In this document: positions 4,728 to 9,416 of the stretch, one piece after another | Layout of the letters: the number at the start of each line of letters is the position of its first letter | Position numbering within the stretch: the first letter of the stretch is position 1 | Position numbers and translations under genes: made by a program | From: a virus | Lineage: Duplodnaviria > Heunggongvirae > Uroviricota > Caudoviricetes | Strand: one strand, 5' to 3' | DNA: 40,925 nt | Virus record (IMG/VR): IMGVR_UViG_2671180437_000016 | Coordinates: 1 to 40,925 of that record | The notes under the pieces: generated by a model | The model's database searches: none | What the model was told of the DNA's origin: nothing | What the model saw: the letters and a program-made list of their open reading frames with translations, nothing else

Positions 4728-5038
4728 GCCGCGTCCCTCTGCCCATCAAGCTGATCCGCCAGATCCCAGCGCGCTATAATTGCCATTGCCTCGCGCCGGT
4801 AGGCATCCATCAGTTCTTCGAACTCAGGGCTGTCTTTAGCAGCCTCCAGCACTTCCTGACGAACGCCTTTGCCTGTTACAACGTCGAAAGTTGAGGACAG
4901 TTGATGAAGTCGGATGCTCTCAATCAGTTCAACTTGTCGGTCATATAGCTGTTCTGACAGGCGGTAGTCCTTGTCGAATGCCAGCATGATTTTTTGAAGA
5001 TTTTTCTGCTGATTAACGTTCATTATCAGCCCTCCCAT
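4724..5038 (-). CDS. Hypothetical early protein
   Basis: 104-aa ORF overlapping exonuclease start (ATGA-type overlap); no recognisable domain. Confidence 0.5.
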   Translation of the reverse strand: MGGLIMNVNQQKNLQKIMLAFDKDYRLSEQLYDRQVELIESIRLHQLSSTFDVVTGKGVRQEVLEAAKDSPEFEELMDAYRREAMAIIARWDLADQLDGQRDAA

Positions 5039-5178
5039 ATCTCGTTATCGTTGGCTACATCGCGAGCTTCTTTGCTGACGAAAGCCCACTTAATGCCTTC
5101 CTGTAAGGTGCGGAACTTCCAGCTCATGAATCCGCATGCAGTAACGCAGTACCAACCGTTGATGATTTTCCACTGCAT
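5026..5178 (-). CDS. Small hypothetical protein (50 aa), first gene of early-left operon
   Basis: ATG at 5178, stop overlaps next gene start; below ORF-track size cutoff; lies directly downstream of operator-bearing promoter region. Confidence 0.3.
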   Translation of the reverse strand: MQWKIINGWYCVTACGFMSWKFRTLQEGIKWAFVSKEARDVANDNEIWEG

Positions 5179-5210
5179 AACTTGTTACCTCGGTCTGTTA
5201 CCTCAGTCTG

Positions 5211-5225
5211 TTACCGTTGAGGTAA
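5211..5225. promoter_or_regulatory. Operator-like palindrome TTACC-GTTGA-GGTAA (OL-type site)
   Basis: Perfect TTACC-N5-GGTAA inverted repeat between repressor 3' end and early-left operon; preceded by tandem 13-bp repeats GTTACCTC(G/A)GTCT at 5184-5209. Confidence 0.6.
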
Positions 5226-5272
5226 TAATTATGCTTATTTGGTTTGGTGTCAATAGATATGAGTTAAAAAAA

Positions 5273-5287
5273 TTACCCGTAAGGTAA
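5273..5287. promoter_or_regulatory. Operator-like palindrome TTACC-CGTAA-GGTAA
   Basis: Perfect TTACC-N5-GGTAA; identical 15-mer recurs at 33500-33514. Confidence 0.6.
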
Positions 5288-5299
5288 TCTATCTGGCAA

Positions 5300-5322
5300 T
5301 AAAAAAGCCGCCATGAGGCGGC
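5300..5322 (-). terminator. Rho-independent terminator after repressor gene
   Basis: Stem GCCGCC/GGCGGC with ATGA loop; run of A on plus strand (U-run on minus) immediately 3' of repressor stop. Confidence 0.6.
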
Positions 5323-5344
5323 TTACTTACTGAAAAATATAGTT

Positions 5345-5929
5345 TTATTGTTTGCTTTTTTCGTTCTGGTTGATGACAAATTCAATGTAACTTTCGATCT
5401 TTGCTTTCTCGGTTTCGGGTAACAATGCGTAGCGCGAGCGGTCATAGTTGATAGTCGCAGGGTCGTGCGGGTGAATCAGTAATTCATAGCCGTGACGCCC
5501 GAATGCGGATGCAACATTCTCCAGGGTGGAAATGGAAACGCTGACCTCATTGTTTAACAGGCGACTGATTGTCACCTGGGCGACGCCGGATGCGCGGTGA
5601 AGTTTTCCCTGCGTTGAAAGGTCGCGGCTTTCGCTCATCCAGCGTTCCAGGTTGTGAGCCGCCAGCTGACCAATGTCGCTTGGGCCGACAGGCTGAAAAC
5701 CTTCCTGAGAAAGCGAGCGATCGATATCAAGCCAGTTACGGGGTTTATTGGCGGCAGCTTCAATTTTTCGCGCAACCTGGTCGCCGATAACCTTCTTGCC
5801 AAGAGCCCAGCGGTTTACCAGATTTGCCTGAGTTCCAAGTTTTTCTGCCATCCGCGTCTGAACACCATTGAATTCACGGTCGATCAAGTCGTTGAGATTT
5901 TGCCTGCGGACGTCCTGGATACTTTTCAT
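5345..5929 (-). CDS. Prophage repressor (CI-like, two HTH regions, no recognisable S24 autocleavage domain)
   Basis: 194 aa, divergent from Cro-like gene across an operator-rich spacer; HTH-like segments 'MAEKLGTQANLVNRWALGKK' and 'ASGVAQVTISRLLNNEVSVSISTLENVA'; no Ala-Gly/Ser...Lys peptidase motif seen. Confidence 0.7.
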   Translation of the reverse strand: MKSIQDVRRQNLNDLIDREFNGVQTRMAEKLGTQANLVNRWALGKKVIGDQVARKIEAAANKPRNWLDIDRSLSQEGFQPVGPSDIGQLAAHNLERWMSESRDLSTQGKLHRASGVAQVTISRLLNNEVSVSISTLENVASAFGRHGYELLIHPHDPATINYDRSRYALLPETEKAKIESYIEFVINQNEKSKQ

Positions 5930-5984
5930 TTTCTGGAAAATCGCCTCATATATGAATCAGTAGATGATTCAATTTAAAGCAATA

Positions 5985-6047
5985 TTACCCAACAGGTAAA
6001 TGCACCTCATAGGTAACTATCCTTGATTTTTGTTACCTTATGGGTGA
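5985..6047. promoter_or_regulatory. Immunity-region operator cluster (three TTACC-N5-GGTAA-type sites) with divergent promoters
   Basis: Sites at 5985-5999 (TTACCCAACAGGTAA), 6002-6016 (GCACCTCATAGGTAA), 6033-6047 (TTACCTTATGGGTGA) between repressor start (5929) and Cro-like start (6084). Confidence 0.65.
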
Positions 6048-6083
6048 ATATTTATTATCTGAAATAAATATCAGGCAATAGCT

Positions 6084-6314
6084 ATGAGCGATAACGGACA
6101 TTTCGATTTCAAAAAGCACTGGCTTGCACTTACTCCGGATGAGCGTGAAGCCTTCGCACAGGAAGCCGGAACGACGAGTCACTATATCCAGACTCACTTA
6201 ACAGGTAAGCGCAAGATGCCAGGTAAGGTATTGATGAATGGGCTTTTTAAAGCCTGTAAAACAAGACAATGGCTGCGCTCAAAAGCAGAACTGGCATACT
6301 TCTTCTACTCATGA
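6084..6314 (+). CDS. Cro-like HTH regulator
   Basis: 76 aa, divergent from repressor; 'EAFAQEAGTTSHYIQTHLTGKRKMPGKVL' resembles Cro/YdaS-type HTH. Confidence 0.65.
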   Translation: MSDNGHFDFKKHWLALTPDEREAFAQEAGTTSHYIQTHLTGKRKMPGKVLMNGLFKACKTRQWLRSKAELAYFFYS

Positions 6315-6336
6315 TATCCAGCTACAACCCTCTGTA

Positions 6337-6358
6337 GACCGCCACCCGGCGGTCTTTT
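6337..6358 (+). terminator. Rho-independent terminator after Cro-like gene
   Basis: Stem GACCGCC/GGCGGTC, loop ACCC, followed by TTTT. Confidence 0.6.
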
Positions 6359-6369
6359 CATATCTATTC

Positions 6370-6384
6370 GTACCTCAAAGGTAA
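6370..6384. promoter_or_regulatory. Operator-like palindrome GTACC-TCAAA-GGTAA
   Basis: One-mismatch member of the TTACC-N5-GGTAA family, followed by AACC-N6-GGTT inverted repeat and T-run (6390-6413). Confidence 0.5.
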
Positions 6385-6464
6385 TAAAAAACCAAATCTG
6401 GTTGATCTTTTTTTTGTGTCAGCACAAAATAACCGTAATCCCAATACTAATGACAGGGCTTACC

Positions 6465-6665
6465 ATGGAAATCATTACACGTATTGATGCCGCAAAGCGC
6501 GGACTTAAACGCTACTACACCGGAAAAACATGTAAGCACGGACATGACAGTGAACGCTGGGTTTACAACGGACACTGTGTTGAGTGCACCATGGAATCAA
6601 ACCGTCGCATCAGGGCAGAGATTAAGCAGATCATGATTAATTCCTCCCCACAACATTCAAGCTGA
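6465..6665 (+). CDS. Small Cys/His-rich (zinc-finger-like) protein in the cII position
   Basis: 66 aa from internal ATG of track ORF 6402..6665; 'CKHGHDSERWVYNGHCVEC'; function not recognisable. Confidence 0.4.
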   Translation: MEIITRIDAAKRGLKRYYTGKTCKHGHDSERWVYNGHCVECTMESNRRIRAEIKQIMINSSPQHSS

Positions 6666-6680
6666 TAGCGGAGATTAATC

Positions 6681-7496
6681 ATGAGCAGACATGCAACAGA
6701 TTGGGCCTGGGAGACAGATCCAGGTAGCTCGTCATTAAAGCTCATACTGCTCTCGATGGCTGACAGAGCCGATGAATATAACCTCTGCTACCCCAGCATA
6801 GAACGCCTCGTTAAAGACACTTGCCTGAATAAAAAAACCGTACAGGCCGGGCTTATATCGCTCATGAAAATGGGGCTTATTTCAGATACCGGAGAGAGAA
6901 AGGGTGCGACGAAAAGAGTGCGGGTTTTCTCTCTTAATATAACCAAAAACGGGAACATTAAAGGCAACCAGGAAGGGGAGAATGAACCCGAAAACGGTAA
7001 TGTTCCCGAAAACGGGAATATACCCAAAAACGGGATGTTGAATGATCCCAAAAACGGGATGTTGAATGATCCCAAAAACGGGATCCAGAACCAGTCATAT
7101 AACCAGTCATTTAACCAAGAGAGGGAGAGCAGGACAAAAACCGGGGATTCTGTGCCTCATGACCCCGGCGCAAACAACGCCGTGATGAATAACTTTGTTC
7201 CTCATGGTGGGCCAGGGCAATTAGGCAAATTTGTCATGCATGAACAATGGCAGCCATCAGATGACTTTCTTCGGAAAAGCTCATTGCAGGGAATCTACCT
7301 GGACAGTCTGCCAACGGCACAGGAACTTGCAGAGTTCAGAATTTACTGGATGGCTGAGGGTAAGGCATACCATCAGGCACAGTGGGAGCAGAAGCTGGCA
7401 AGGAGGCTGCAGATTAGCAGACAGAAGCAATCAACATTACCTGATAACAACGTTCCGCACTGGAACAGTCCTGAAGCATGGGAGGATTTCTTGTGA
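6681..7496 (+). CDS. Replication initiator (lambda O-like, N-terminal winged-helix) containing internal iterons
   Basis: 271 aa; N-terminal 'LKLILLSMADRADEYNLCYPSIERLVKDTCLNKKTVQAGLISLMKMGLIS'; repetitive 'ENGNVPENGNIPKNGMLNDPKNGMLNDPKNG' encoded by DNA direct repeats. Confidence 0.75.
   Translation: MSRHATDWAWETDPGSSSLKLILLSMADRADEYNLCYPSIERLVKDTCLNKKTVQAGLISLMKMGLISDTGERKGATKRVRVFSLNITKNGNIKGNQEGENEPENGNVPENGNIPKNGMLNDPKNGMLNDPKNGIQNQSYNQSFNQERESRTKTGDSVPHDPGANNAVMNNFVPHGGPGQLGKFVMHEQWQPSDDFLRKSSLQGIYLDSLPTAQELAEFRIYWMAEGKAYHQAQWEQKLARRLQISRQKQSTLPDNNVPHWNSPEAWEDFL
6987..7082. repeat. Iteron-like direct repeats (putative phage origin of replication) inside initiator gene
   Basis: Five copies of CCC(G/A)AAAACGG(G/T) starting at 6987, 7005, 7023, 7047, 7071; 24-bp unit CCCAAAAACGGGATGTTGAATGAT exactly duplicated; followed by AACCAGTCAT x2 (7089-7110). 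Confidence 0.65.
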
Positions 7497-8278
7497 ACAA
7501 CGTTTTTACCGCGATACAAAACCGTGACGGAGAAGCCCTTTCTCGCATGTCAGGTTATGAGCATCAGTACACCAACAATGACAACGTGGTGAACATGTCA
7601 GCAGAGAGGCTTGTTGATGCCCTTTTCAAACAGCTGAAACAACTGTTTCCGGCGGCAGTGGTAACCAACCTGAAGACGCCAGAGCAGGAAGTTGCTGCAA
7701 AACAGCAGTGGATTGCTGCGTTTGCCGAAGGGGGGATCCGAACCCGTGAACAGGTTTCTGCTGGTATGCGCCACGCCCGCGCCAGTGAATCTCCGTTCTG
7801 GCCGTCGCCAGGACAATTTATCAAGTGGTGCAAAGACAGCAAGATGGTTCTTGGCGTCACCATTGACGATGTGATGGCGGAGTTTCACCGGTACAGCAAG
7901 GAAAAAAGTTTATATCCTGGTGGTCCCGAAAGATTCCCGTGGCGACATCCGGTTATGTACTGGGTCGTATGTGATACCCGCCGTGCAATGTATCAGCGCC
8001 AGCTTAGCGAGATTGAGGTTGAGAAACACGCGCGCAGGCTGCTCGATGATTGGGCGAAAAAGGTGGCTTCCGGACAGCAGATACCCGATCCGGTGATCAG
8101 CATACAGGCAAAGCCAGAGCCCATGAGTACACCTCCGGACACAGGGAGAGACGTTTACCATCCACCAGGGCGAAGTTTCGGGTGCATGCCTAACGCCGCC
8201 ACCCTTGGGGGAATAACACCGGCGCAGTGGCTGATGGAGGAATACAGGCGGGGAAAGGCGGCAGGATTTATCAAGTAA
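7493..8278 (+). CDS. Replication protein P-like (helicase loader)
   Basis: Follows initiator gene; start taken at GTG 7493 (GGAGGA SD 6 nt upstream, GTGA overlap with initiator stop; ATG 7478 is the alternative); 'FWPSPGQFIKWC' segment reminiscent of lambda P family. Confidence 0.65.
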   Translation: MNNVFTAIQNRDGEALSRMSGYEHQYTNNDNVVNMSAERLVDALFKQLKQLFPAAVVTNLKTPEQEVAAKQQWIAAFAEGGIRTREQVSAGMRHARASESPFWPSPGQFIKWCKDSKMVLGVTIDDVMAEFHRYSKEKSLYPGGPERFPWRHPVMYWVVCDTRRAMYQRQLSEIEVEKHARRLLDDWAKKVASGQQIPDPVISIQAKPEPMSTPPDTGRDVYHPPGRSFGCMPNAATLGGITPAQWLMEEYRRGKAAGFIK

Positions 8279-8315
8279 TACCAGCGCGATAGCGCATTTT
8301 TTTACGCCTCGATAA

Positions 8316-8330
8316 TTACCTGACAGGTAA
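8316..8330. promoter_or_regulatory. Operator-like palindrome TTACC-TGACA-GGTAA
   Basis: Perfect TTACC-N5-GGTAA in spacer upstream of DUF1064 gene. Confidence 0.55.
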
Positions 8331-8377
8331 TAAAATATTCTAAAATCTATTGATTTCGTGTCTTATGTGGTTTTTAA

Positions 8378-8392
8378 TTACCTCAGAGGTAA
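8378..8392. promoter_or_regulatory. Operator-like palindrome TTACC-TCAGA-GGTAA overlapping ribosome-binding region
   Basis: Perfect site ending 4 nt before ATG at 8396. Confidence 0.55.
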
Positions 8393-8395
8393 ATC

Positions 8396-8740
8396 ATGAG
8401 AAAACAGATACAGGCTCTTGGTCGACTCAAAACAGGCCAGATGAACAAAACAGAATCTGCGTATTGCCAGCACCTTGAGCAGCGTAAACGTGCAGGGGAA
8501 ATCGCCTGGTATCGATTCGAGGGTATCAAGCTGCGGTTAGCTGACAACACGTTCTATACGCCCGATTTCGCTGTGATGCTCGCCACCGGAGAGATGGAAC
8601 TGCACGAAGTGAAAGGTTTCTGGACCGACGACGCCAGGGTGAAAACCAAAGTCGCCGCAGATCAGTATCCGTTCCGAATCATCGGGGTAACGGTTAAACC
8701 AAAGAAAGCAGGTGGTGGCTGGAACATCGAAGAGTTCTGA
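8396..8740 (+). CDS. DUF1064-like phage protein
   Basis: 114 aa; 'YTPDFAVMLATGEMELHEVKGFWTDDARVKTKV' resembles DUF1064 proteins common in phage replication/nin regions. Confidence 0.6.
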   Translation: MRKQIQALGRLKTGQMNKTESAYCQHLEQRKRAGEIAWYRFEGIKLRLADNTFYTPDFAVMLATGEMELHEVKGFWTDDARVKTKVAADQYPFRIIGVTVKPKKAGGGWNIEEF

Positions 8741-8801
8741 ATCGACGATCTTTTTAGTTATCAATGTAATCAATAAGTTATGTGGATAAGCGAGGGTAAA
8801 G

Positions 8802-9416
8802 ATGGAAAGTAATATCAAAGGGTTAGTTTCCGCCGGGCATGAGATGGCTTCGGAACTGAAAGCAGAATGTGGTGCCGTTGATATGCGCAGTGTGGCAAAG
8901 CTGATCAGCGATTTGGCAACGCAACTGGAAGTGCAACTGGTGCGTGCTAATGCGCTGGCCGAAGACCAACAGAAAGCGCTTGAGTCAATTAAGCAGGCTG
9001 ATGCGGCTGTTAAGTTGGCACACGAGAAGTTTTCAGCTCTGGCGGCGGAGAATGCGGGGCTTAAGGCCTTCAAAACCGCCGTTTATCAGCAGATGGGCGT
9101 TGGATGTGATGCTCCTGAATTCTCCATTACGGTAGGTTTGAGTAACTTACGTCGTTTTGCTGACACACTCCACGCCATTGAGCGTGAGTTCTTTACCAAA
9201 GAGCTACCTGATGAAGAGCACGAAGGCGAAACATTCAATGAATGTCCACTTAGCTGGGGAATGAGCGTCGAACAGTACGTTTCCGAGTTTCGCAAATGCC
9301 TGGCTGAAGTACGGGCGCAGGGCGTGGAGATGTTTGCGGAGTGTGCATACACACTTGAACATCATGATCACGCAGTTGCCTTCGCCGCTGAGCTTCGCAA
9401 AGGAGGCAACCAGTGA
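8802..9416 (+). CDS. Hypothetical phage protein
   Basis: 204-aa ORF with SD GAGGGTAAAG; no recognisable domain. Confidence 0.55.
   Translation: MESNIKGLVSAGHEMASELKAECGAVDMRSVAKLISDLATQLEVQLVRANALAEDQQKALESIKQADAAVKLAHEKFSALAAENAGLKAFKTAVYQQMGVGCDAPEFSITVGLSNLRRFADTLHAIEREFFTKELPDEEHEGETFNECPLSWGMSVEQYVSEFRKCLAEVRAQGVEMFAECAYTLEHHDHAVAFAAELRKGGNQ

What the first reader, a model, noticed from the sequence alone, without database searches (positions are those of the whole stretch)
6987..7110. Iteron array inside the replication initiator gene (putative ori)
Five direct repeats of CCC(G/A)AAAACGG(G/T) at 18-24 bp spacing, with a 24-bp unit exactly duplicated, are embedded in the initiator ORF and encode the repetitive ENGN/PKNG peptide; two AACCAGTCAT repeats follow. 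Established knowledge: lambda ori iterons lie within gene O and are bound by O protein. The same arrangement here suggests ori location and initiator binding sites.
Basis: partly seen in the sequence, partly recalled or inferred. Interest (0 to 1): 0.45.

Follow-up and report, generated by a model that had tools for sequence, protein, structure and literature searches.

The report
Phage replication origin inside initiator gene
The repeats are real and are almost certainly the binding sites of this phage's own replication initiator, that is its origin of replication, built like the textbook lambda and phi80 origins, so the finding is sound but largely ordinary.

Summary
Five CCCRAAAACGGK repeats lie at 6987-7082, with a sixth, degenerate copy at 6942. 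Two to three AACCAGTCAT 12-mers follow at 7089-7117. All lie in the linker-coding part of a 271-aa initiator gene (6681-7496: N-terminal HTH_36, C-terminal DnaT-like). A lambda-P-like helicase-loader gene follows. The window is a phiV10-like E. coli temperate phage.

Comparative evidence shows the repeats are selected as DNA, not as peptide:
- N-domain homologues from about 30 genera carry the same motif at the same gene position.
- The motif occurs in all three reading frames, often at 17-bp spacing.
- Synonymous positions are frozen (Pro always CCC, 37/37 versus 13% background).
- The motif is 13-fold enriched and strand-specific.
- The array stays with the N-domain when the C-domain is swapped, and is absent when the N-domain is swapped.

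One iteron (TTCCCGAAAACGGGAA) is identical to an annotated gp15-binding site of the phi80 origin, although phi80 gp15 belongs to another Pfam family.

The interpretation (origin plus initiator-binding sites) is supported by inference, not by experiment. Differences from lambda: no strongly AT-rich tract, and a conserved 12-mer repeat in its place. Verdict: new member of a known kind, modest interest.

The parts
6681..7496 (+). Replication initiator gene (271 aa): N-terminal HTH_36 winged-helix domain, repeat-encoded linker, C-terminal DnaT-like domain.
   Evidence: ORF. Pfam HTH_36 at aa 18-67 (1.8e-10) and DnaT at aa 184-252 (1.1e-15). PHROG 1032 at 9.5e-108. PDB DnaT C-terminal chains at E about 1e-20. 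96-98% nucleotide identity to the phiV10-group 'replication initiation / primosomal protein' genes.
6681..6941 (+). Coding region of the N-terminal DNA-binding domain (aa 1-87), the presumed iteron reader.
   Evidence: Alignment A1 of 8 homologues (44-58% identity). tblastn shows the domain is shared with Edwardsiella GF-2, Vibrio H20, Acinetobacter AP22 and other phages that carry different C-termini.
6940..6955 (+). Iteron 0 (TAACCAAAAACGGGAA), degenerate, 45 bp upstream of iteron 1.
   Evidence: One-mismatch match at 6942-6953. Member of repeat family D1/D2.
6985..7000 (+). Iteron 1 (AACCCGAAAACGGTAA).
   Evidence: Exact pattern match at 6987-6998.
7003..7018 (+). Iteron 2 (TTCCCGAAAACGGGAA), a perfect 16-bp dyad, identical to an annotated gp15-binding site in the phi80 origin.
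   Evidence: phi80 sites printed from the annotation.
7021..7036 (+). Iteron 3 (TACCCAAAAACGGGAT).
   Evidence: Exact pattern match at 7023-7034.
7045..7060 (+). Iteron 4 (ATCCCAAAAACGGGAT), a perfect dyad that contains GATC.
   Evidence: Part of the 24-bp unit with 100% matches.
7069..7084 (+). Iteron 5 (ATCCCAAAAACGGGAT), a perfect dyad with GATC at both edges.
7089..7117 (+). Tandem 12-mers AACCAGTCATAT / AACCAGTCATTT / AACCAAG, the positional equivalent of the lambda AT-rich tract and the candidate unwinding or loading element.
   Evidence: TRF period 12, 2.4 copies. Three copies in phiV10. (G/A)AACCnnTCAnT x2-3 follows the last iteron in most homologues, in some in other reading frames. 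Only 56-58% AT.
7113..7146 (+). Purine-rich tract (82% A+G on the top strand) downstream of the 12-mers.
   Evidence: This is a sequence property only; its function is not tested.
7230..7436 (+). Coding region of the DnaT-like C-terminal domain (aa 184-252), the presumed loader- or ssDNA-interaction module.
   Evidence: The domain is shared with Tyrion, SPN1S and Kp ST512 phi13.3 initiators that have a different N-domain and lack the iterons.
7478..8278 (+). Lambda-P-like helicase loader gene. It overlaps the initiator stop codon. In phiV10 the start is annotated at the position equivalent to 7493.
   Evidence: Pfam Phage_lambda_P at 1.5e-56. PHROG 109 'P-like helicase loader' at 2.4e-92. phiV10 annotation.

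Best explanation
The array at 6940-7084 is the iteron part of this phage's replication origin, and it works as in lambda and phi80.

1. Early rightward transcription expresses the initiator and the P-like loader.
2. Dimers of the initiator's N-terminal winged-helix (HTH_36) domain bind the dyad iterons. These lie in the DNA that encodes the initiator's own inter-domain linker.
3. The multi-iteron nucleoprotein complex bends the DNA (each iteron has a central A-tract) and destabilises the flanking region. The most likely site is the conserved 12-mer repeats and purine-rich tract at 7089-7146.
4. The C-terminal DnaT-like domain brings in the P-like loader with host DnaB.

Shown here: the repeats, their dyad form, their position, DNA-level purifying selection, co-inheritance with the N-domain, and identity to a phi80 origin site.

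Inferred: binding, bending, the unwinding site, loader recruitment, and that this is the only origin.
For: 1. The repeats are statistically real and unique to this spot.

2. Anatomy. They lie mid-gene between HTH_36 and DnaT_C, with a P-like loader gene next. The relative position is the same as the annotated lambda iterons and the annotated P22 rep_origin.

3. DNA-level selection across about 30 homologues from different genera.
- Motif density is 12.8/kb in the linker on the + strand, against 0.94/kb elsewhere on both strands.
- The same consensus is found in all three reading frames (18, 106 and 23 copies).
- 33 of 91 close spacings are not multiples of 3, and 17 bp occurs 21 times.
- When the motif is ascertained from the peptide only, Pro is CCC in 37/37 cases against 13% background (p 5e-25), Lys is AAA in 33/33, Glu is GAA in 24/24 and Asn is AAC in 39/42.

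4. Perfect 5+6+5 dyads with an A/T-rich centre are 10-fold enriched in the linkers. The arms differ between lineages but stay complementary: ATCCC/GGGAT, GTACC/GGTAC, GTCGG/CCGAC, GTGCC/GGCAC.

5. Modularity.
- Edwardsiella GF-2 joins this N-domain, the iterons and the 12-mer to a lambda-O-type C-domain.
- IMG/VR relatives with an identical N-domain and array have two different C-termini.
- Tyrion, SPN1S and Kp ST512 phi13.3 share the DnaT-like C-domain but have another N-domain and no such motif.

6. Iteron 2 equals the phi80 site annotated as bound by gp15.

7. The linker tolerates 4 to 9 units among relatives whose N-domain is 99-100% identical. This fits a linker peptide that tolerates changes in length. 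The comparison with cis-acting in-frame lambda ori deletions rests on memory of the classical literature.

8. Lambda origin anatomy and O binding are documented in PMC7466680.
Against: - No experiment on this initiator family was found.
- The region after the iterons is only 56-58% AT, the 91st percentile of duplex instability in the window. Lambda and P22 have 76% and phi80 has 62%. The unwinding element is therefore not identified.
- Within this window all copies are in one reading frame, so the window alone cannot separate DNA-level from peptide-level selection.
- A consensus-based dyad test was not significant in most loci, because the arms are short.
- SNP density among close relatives does not distinguish iteron cores from spacers (5/72 against 9/75).
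- The cumulative GC-skew minimum near 5-7 kb coincides with the switch in transcription direction and is not independent evidence.
- Copies within one locus are not independent, so the p-values are optimistic.
Confidence: 0.8

Rival explanations
1. The repeats are only a coding feature. They would be a low-complexity, slippage-prone N/G/P/K/E-rich linker peptide between two domains, with no function as DNA.
For: Within this lineage all copies are in frame and encode PENG/PKNG. Copy number varies by whole 18- or 24-bp units, as expected for slippage. The distal copies and the following QNQS peptide keep one reading frame in most relatives.
Against: The same DNA motif is found in all three reading frames, with 17-bp spacings. 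In phi80-type genes it is read as FPKTG instead of PENG. Synonymous sites are frozen against codon-usage background, including the rare Pro codon CCC. The motif is strand-specific and dyad-symmetric.
Confidence: 0.04
2. The repeats are initiator-binding sites, but their main role is not origin firing. They could serve autoregulation of the initiator/loader operon, titration or copy control, or exclusion of related phages, with strand opening occurring elsewhere, for example in the 80% AT intergenic region at 8311-8350.
For: There is no strong AT-rich tract next to the array. The least stable DNA near the replication genes is at 8311-8350 and 5948-6090. Cloned lambda iterons are known to inhibit phage growth by titration (PMC3349717 and PMC4488673, listed).
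Against: The iteron motif occurs nowhere else in the window, so an origin elsewhere would lack initiator sites. The AT-rich spots coincide with a terminator/promoter region and with the operator region. The conserved 12-mer element always abuts the array. phi80 also has only 62% AT at this position.
Confidence: 0.1
3. The repeats are read by something other than the initiator's N-domain, such as a host protein or another phage protein. This would explain why the same 16-mer occurs with N-domains of two different Pfam families.
For: The identical TTCCCGAAAACGGGAA lies mid-gene in 50 Phage_rep_O-type and 11 HTH_36-type initiator ORFs. BLASTP finds no similarity between the two proteins. Profile comparison finds only HTH-level similarity (probability 63-74%).
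Against: Within the HTH_36 family the iteron arms change between lineages as the N-domain diverges. The array is lost when the N-domain is replaced. Lambda O is known to bind its own iterons directly (PMC7466680). There are no DnaA or IHF consensus sites in the array.
Confidence: 0.05

Closest known systems
Phage phi80 origin (iterons inside gene 15, bound by gp15; GenBank JX871397 annotation)
   Same: The iteron sequence is the same. phi80 sites are AACCGGAAACGGGAA, TTCCCGAAAACGGGAA, TTCCCGAAATCAGGAA and TTCCCGAAAACGGTA, and window iteron 2 is identical to the second. Both arrays are mid-gene, both have a moderately AT-rich flank (62% against 56-58%), and both are followed by a P-like loader gene.
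   Different: phi80 gp15 is Pfam Phage_rep_O with a lambda-O-like C-domain. The window protein is HTH_36 plus DnaT_C, and BLASTP finds no similarity between them. Spacing is 20-21 bp in phi80 against 18/24 bp here. The iteron is read in another frame. phi80 has the lambda-type GAGAATTCTGACGAATCC palindrome and lacks the AACCAGTCAT 12-mers.
Phage lambda ori (four iterons, an AT-rich tract and a palindrome within gene O; O-some; P-DnaB loading)
   Same: The architecture matches: dyad iterons with a central AAAAC, located in the linker-coding middle of the initiator gene; an N-domain that reads the origin and a C-domain that partners the loader; a P homologue downstream.
   Different: Lambda iterons are ATCCCTCAAAACGAGGGA, with longer arms and different arm spacing. 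Lambda has a 76% AT tract, where this phage has 56-58% AT and a 12-mer repeat. The O N-domain is PF04492, not HTH_36.
HTH_36 + DnaT_C / P-like gene pairs ('O-like/P-like'; domesticated as DopC/DopE in Cellvibrionales and Oceanospirillales, PMC5509034)
   Same: The two-gene domain architecture is the same: HTH_36 N-terminus, DnaT C-terminal motif, and an adjacent PF06992 P-like gene.
   Different: The authors report that the domesticated dopC loci lack iteron-like repeats. The phage gene here carries a full array.
Iteron plasmid replicons (Rep_3 / RepA / pi / TrfA types)
   Same: Both have direct repeats bound by a winged-helix initiator, and short tandem repeats in the unwinding region.
   Different: In plasmids the iterons lie outside the rep gene, usually with DnaA boxes and an AT-rich DUE. 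Here there is no Rep_3 hit and no DnaA box in the array.

Membership tests
Lambda/phi80-type phage origin (ori inside the initiator gene) | Four or more direct repeats of about 16-19 bp, each with internal dyad symmetry and an A-tract centre | tested here: met
   There are six copies, three of them perfect 5+6+5 dyads. 6 matches against 0.56 expected.
Lambda/phi80-type phage origin (ori inside the initiator gene) | Array located in the inter-domain (linker) coding region in the middle of the initiator gene | tested here: met
   The array covers aa 88-135, between HTH_36 (aa 18-67) and DnaT_C (aa 184-252). Its relative position is 0.32-0.48, against 0.39-0.46 in lambda.
Lambda/phi80-type phage origin (ori inside the initiator gene) | Repeats selected as DNA, independently of the encoded peptide | tested here: met
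   The motif occurs in three reading frames and at 17-bp spacings. Synonymous sites are frozen. The same 16-mer is read in two frames in different initiator types.
Lambda/phi80-type phage origin (ori inside the initiator gene) | Iterons are inherited with the initiator's N-terminal domain (type specificity) | tested here: met
   The array is kept through C-domain swaps (GF-2, H20, AP22, two E. coli C-termini). It is absent when the N-domain differs (Tyrion, SPN1S, Kp ST512 phi13.3). Caveat: the same iteron also occurs with Phage_rep_O-type N-domains.
Lambda/phi80-type phage origin (ori inside the initiator gene) | Strongly AT-rich unwinding tract immediately promoter-distal to the iterons | tested here: inconclusive
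   56-58% AT, the 91st percentile of instability. Lambda and P22 have 76% and phi80 has 62%. A conserved 12-mer repeat occupies the position.
Lambda/phi80-type phage origin (ori inside the initiator gene) | Helicase loader or helicase gene immediately downstream | tested here: met
   Phage_lambda_P at 1.5e-56 and PHROG 109.
Lambda/phi80-type phage origin (ori inside the initiator gene) | Initiator protein binds the repeats, and the fragment supports initiator-dependent replication | not testable with these tools
   This needs EMSA or footprinting and an ori-plasmid or marker-frequency assay.
Phage_rep_O (PF04492) initiators (lambda O, P22 gp18, phi80 gp15) | Match to the PF04492 N-terminal domain | tested here: not met
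   There is no PF04492 hit; only HTH_36 matches. The three classical initiators hit PF04492 at 6e-25 to 7e-38. hhalign shows only HTH-level similarity, with probability 2.7%, 63% and 74% as the profiles grow.
HTH_36 + DnaT_C 'O-like' initiators with a P-like partner (PHROG 1032; DopC/DopE-type architecture) | N-terminal PF13730, a domain homologous to the DnaT C-terminus, and an adjacent PF06992 gene | tested here: met
   The architecture is described in PMC5509034.
Plasmid iteron replicons (Rep_3 / RepA type) | Rep_3-type initiator, iterons outside the rep gene, DnaA boxes | tested here: not met
   No Rep family hit. The iterons lie inside the gene. There is no DnaA-box match in 6900-7200, even allowing one mismatch.
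Plain coding tandem repeat (low-complexity linker) | Repeat conserved only as peptide, with free synonymous variation and a single reading frame | tested here: not met

The most novel reading that the evidence does not exclude
The iteron TTCCCGAAAACGGGAA may be a shared 'origin word' used by initiators whose N-domains belong to different Pfam families and show no BLAST similarity: phi80-type PF04492 and this phage's PF13730.

If both proteins really read the same DNA, two consequences follow. Otherwise unrelated prophages could fire, titrate or exclude each other's origins. Origin specificity in lambdoid phages would also not be predictable from initiator family.

Linked to this, the conserved (G/A)AACCnnTCAnT 12-mer repeat, which replaces the AT-rich tract, may be a distinct unwinding or loader-entry element that is not AT-driven.
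Probability: 0.25. Interest if true: 0.6.

Novelty: new member of a known kind. Interest (0 to 1): 0.35.

Why it matters
The result gives a precise, testable origin (about 6930-7150) for phiV10-group phages that carry this initiator type. phiV10 is a serotype-converting E. coli O157 phage used in typing and reporter constructs. The result extends the same origin plan to a wide set of HTH_36-type phage initiators in Vibrio, Acinetobacter, Proteus, Pseudoalteromonas, Burkholderia, Desulfovibrio and other genera.

It also provides a simple sequence rule for calling such origins: dyad iterons with an A-tract centre, frozen synonymous sites, spacings of 17/18 bp followed by 22-24 bp, and then a 12-mer repeat.

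The identity of the iteron with the phi80 origin, despite a different initiator family, raises a checkable question about cross-talk between prophage replication modules.

Tried and rejected
- The search for related loci with the 8-sequence N-domain alignment failed because no stretch was conserved enough. A 3-sequence alignment worked.
- The IMG/VR scan returned only near-identical E. coli prophages. These were useful for copy-number variation but not for divergence.
- My first codon-bias test was circular, because motifs were picked by DNA sequence. I replaced it with peptide-based ascertainment.
- A consensus-dyad shuffle test was not significant in most loci (median p 0.79). The arms are short and the windows were poorly centred. 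A motif-free scan for perfect dyads was informative instead.
- SNP density among 44 distinct close relatives did not separate iteron cores from spacers.
- GC skew is confounded by transcription direction.
- The promoter/terminator scan only picked up iteron dyads as minus-strand 'terminators', which are artefacts.
- No DnaA-box or IHF consensus was found in the array.
- Direct homology to lambda O is rejected at the Pfam and BLAST level.
- The P22 match GAATCAGTCA just after its last iteron was noted, but it partly overlaps the P22 iteron's own flank, so I did not count it as evidence.
- Literature searches found no origin mapping for phiV10/epsilon15-like phages or HTH_36-type initiators. The phi80/Lula genome paper is not held.
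- I did not run the expensive protein-database searches or structure prediction, because the answers would not change the verdict.

Full report
**What is there**

The window is a phiV10-like (genus Uetakevirus) temperate phage of E. coli. The initiator gene is 96-98% identical in nucleotides to those of phages PAS61, EC.W1-9, phiv142-3 and phiV10.

ORF 6681-7496 (+) encodes a 271-aa protein. It has a Pfam HTH_36 domain at aa 18-67 and a DnaT DNA-binding domain at aa 184-252. It matches PHROG 1032 'replication initiation protein' at 1e-107. Its C-terminus matches solved E. coli DnaT C-terminal structures at E about 1e-20. The next ORF (7478/7493-8278) is a lambda-P-like helicase loader. Upstream lie a repressor gene with two HTH motifs on the minus strand and small cro/cII-position genes. 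This is the layout of a lambdoid early-right operon.

**Check of the observation**

CCCRAAAACGGK matches exactly at 6987, 7005, 7023, 7047 and 7071, with a one-mismatch copy at 6942. That is 6 matches against 0.56 expected, no shuffle out of 100 reached 6, and there is no other copy in the 40.9-kb window.

TRF finds an 18-bp array, a 24-bp array with 100% matches and a 12-bp array AACCAGTCATAT at 7089-7117. Taken with two flanking bases on each side, three copies are perfect 16-bp dyads: TTCCCGAAAACGGGAA at 7003, and ATCCCAAAAACGGGAT at 7045 and 7069. No other such dyad occurs in 5000-9000. The repeats encode PENGN/PKNGMLND and the 12-mers encode QNQSYNQSFNQ. The element should be widened to about 6940-7146.

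**DNA or peptide?**

In this window every copy is in one reading frame, so relatives were needed.

tblastn showed that the protein is modular. Its first 140-150 residues, repeats included, recur at 35-50% identity in Edwardsiella GF-2, Vibrio H20-like, Acinetobacter AP22/Ab105-2phi, Moraxella Mcat8, Burkholderia Bcep176 and other phages that have different C-termini. Its DnaT-like C-domain recurs in Tyrion, SPN1S, Klebsiella ST512 phi13.3 and Rac ydaU behind different N-termini.

Every N-domain homologue has a repeat array at 0.3-0.5 of its gene. The annotated lambda iterons sit at 0.39-0.46. A scan of one genome per species added 27 loci from Vibrio, Proteus, Providencia, Pseudoalteromonas, Marinobacterium, Wohlfahrtiimonas, Acinetobacter, Desulfovibrio, Sphingobium and others.

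Across 31 loci:
- CC[AG]AAAACGG (up to 2 mismatches) occurs at 12.8/kb in the linker on the coding strand, against 0.94/kb elsewhere on both strands. Only 5 reverse-orientation hits fall in the linkers.
- The same DNA consensus appears in all three reading frames (18, 106 and 23 copies).
- Of 91 close spacings, 33 are not multiples of three. Spacings of 17 bp occur 21 times, 18 bp 14 times and 24 bp 38 times.
- A recurrent plan is two or three copies at 17-18 bp followed by copies at 22-24 bp. The window's 18, 18, 24, 24 fits it.

I then picked the motif purely from the peptide ([PTS][KEQ][NIT]G in the linker). The synonymous positions turned out to be frozen:
- Pro is CCC in 37/37 cases, against 13% in the rest of the same genes (p 5e-25).
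- Lys is AAA in 33/33.
- Glu is GAA in 24/24.
- Asn is AAC in 39/42.
- Gly is almost never GGC.

Copies within a locus are not independent, so the p-values are optimistic, but the direction is unambiguous.

A motif-free scan for perfect 5+6+5 dyads with an A/T-rich centre finds 2.98/kb in linkers against 0.29/kb elsewhere. Lineages have different but mutually complementary arms: ATCCC/GGGAT, GTACC/GGTAC, GTCCC/GGGAC, GTCGG/CCGAC, GTGCC/GGCAC. This is what a dimeric DNA-binding protein would impose. The repeats are therefore a DNA element that the coding sequence accommodates, not the reverse.

**Link to the N-domain**

The array travels with the N-domain.
- GF-2 joins this N-domain, ATCCCAAAATTGGGAT iterons and the 12-mer to a lambda-O-type C-domain. 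The junction includes the lambda-like GAGAATTCTGACGAATCC palindrome, and a P gene follows.
- Among 80 IMG/VR E. coli prophages with a 99-100% identical N-domain, the array is kept with two different C-termini. Unit number ranges from 4 to 9, by whole 18- or 24-bp units.
- phiV10 has one extra 12-mer and BP9 lacks one 24-bp unit.
- Initiators that share the DnaT-like C-domain but have another N-domain have no such motif.

**Closest known**

The phi80 record annotates four gp15-binding sites inside gene 15: AACCGGAAACGGGAA, TTCCCGAAAACGGGAA, TTCCCGAAATCAGGAA and TTCCCGAAAACGGTA. The second is identical to window iteron 2, and all four fit the family consensus.

Yet phi80 gp15 is a Phage_rep_O (PF04492) protein, like lambda O and P22 gp18, and BLASTP finds no similarity to the window protein. 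Profile comparisons give only HTH-level similarity: probability 2.7% against lambda O alone, 63% and 74% with larger profiles, over 37-43 columns.

Exact matches to the 16-mer in IMG/VR lie mid-gene in 50 Phage_rep_O-type ORFs, where it is mostly read as TTC CCG AAA ACG. They also lie in 11 HTH_36-type ORFs, read as CCC GAA AAC GGG, and in 19 other or truncated contexts that may be chance. One divergent Phage_rep_O-type gene reads it as VPENGN at 24-bp spacing.

So the window carries phi80-type iterons behind an initiator of a different family. I cannot explain this from sequence. The options are deep conservation of the recognition mode within the HTH clan, convergence, or reading by a shared factor.

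**The flank**

Lambda and P22 have 76% AT in the 45 bp after the last iteron and phi80 has 62%. Here the figure is 56-58%, only the 91st percentile of duplex instability in the window.

That position holds two to three 12-mers, (G/A)AACCnnTCAnT. They are conserved right after the last iteron in most homologues, including Vibrio H20 and GF-2, and lie in other reading frames in several loci (L110, L116, L109, L010). An 82% purine tract follows. There are no DnaA-box or IHF consensus sites in the array. Three GATC sites sit in the distal iterons. The 12-mer region is the best candidate for the opening or loading site, but this is inference.

**Mechanism proposed**

Transcription from the early-right promoter yields the initiator and the loader. 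N-domain dimers occupy the iterons and form an O-some-like complex that bends the DNA. The adjacent 12-mer and purine tract opens. The DnaT-like C-domain and the P-like protein deliver DnaB. E. coli DnaT's C-terminal domain is reported to bind ssDNA; that statement rests on memory of the structural papers behind the PDB chains matched.

Lambda's equivalent steps are documented (PMC7466680). The HTH_36 + DnaT_C / P-like pairing has been described as O/P-like, and its domesticated derivatives lack iterons (PMC5509034).

**Rivals**

- A purely coding repeat is contradicted.
- A non-origin role for the binding sites, or an origin elsewhere, is possible because the AT tract is weak. However, the motif occurs nowhere else in the window.
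- Reading by another factor is suggested by the cross-family identity. It is opposed by the change of iteron arms between lineages within the family and by loss of the array when the N-domain is replaced.

**Novelty and score**

An origin made of iterons inside the initiator gene is textbook for lambdoid phages, and the iteron sequence itself is that of phi80.

What is new is the assignment to the HTH_36/DnaT_C initiator family of phiV10-like phages. I found no published origin mapping for it. Also new are the family-wide evidence for DNA-level selection, the conserved spacing plan and the 12-mer element.

I rate it a new member of a known kind, with interest 0.35.

Noticed in passing
L124 (phi80 JX871397) 664-740; window 7003-7018; loci L125-L204: The phi80 origin iteron TTCCCGAAAACGGGAA is identical to window iteron 2. 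Exact copies in IMG/VR sit mid-gene in initiators of two Pfam families, PF04492 and PF13730, and are read in different frames. The reason for the shared sequence is unexplained.
   Followed up: partly
window 7089-7117; L001, L004, L005, L095-L110 just after the last iteron: A tandem 12-mer (G/A)AACCnnTCAnT (2-3 copies) directly follows the iteron array in most homologues across genera, in some of them in other reading frames. It occupies the place of lambda's AT-rich tract but is only moderately AT-rich.
   Followed up: partly
L004 (Edwardsiella phage GF-2) 1501-2343: This is a natural chimeric initiator. It joins a window-type N-domain, iterons and 12-mer to a lambda-O-type C-domain, including a lambda-like GAGAATTCTGACGAATCC palindrome, and is followed by a P gene.
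   Followed up: partly
L015-L094 (IMG/VR E. coli prophages): Among relatives with a 99-100% identical N-domain, the array has 4 to 9 iterons, changing by whole 18- or 24-bp units. Two alternative C-termini occur (...WNSPEAWEDFL and ...EVWDEINSRTS).
   Followed up: yes
L002 (Escherichia phage BP9, PP488543.1, 133.4-137.2 kb) and PP350014.1 (phage PH444): A 138-kb Vequintavirus record and a 115-kb record each contain a phiV10-like repressor/initiator/P module near a record end. These may be assembly chimeras with a temperate-phage contaminant.
   Followed up: no
L122 (P22) 1414-1423: P22's annotated origin has GAATCAGTCA right after its last iteron, the same 10-mer that follows the array in GF-2, L099 and L100. 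Part of it belongs to the P22 iteron's own flank, so it may be coincidence.
   Followed up: no
L109 (Granulosicoccaceae MAG), ORF from 1501, 450 nt: The ORF stops inside the 12-mer repeat (…CAGAACCTATCAGTAG GAACCTATCAGTAG). The N-domain plus iterons therefore form a separate short gene there.
   Followed up: no
window 7044, 7068, 7082: Three GATC (Dam) sites fall within 41 bp, inside the arms of the distal iterons. The window average is about 4 per kb. Methylation or SeqA control is possible but untested.
   Followed up: no
window 8311-8366: This is the least stable DNA near the replication genes (80% AT). It lies in the intergenic region after the P-like gene and contains the inverted repeat ATTACCTGACAGGTAAT. 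The equivalent site in phiV10 is annotated as a terminator.
   Followed up: no
window 6954-6986 (ORF nt 290-300): The 45-bp gap between iteron 0 and iteron 1 is the most variable stretch of the array among close relatives. In the relative L095 the first two array copies lie only 18 bp apart.
   Followed up: no
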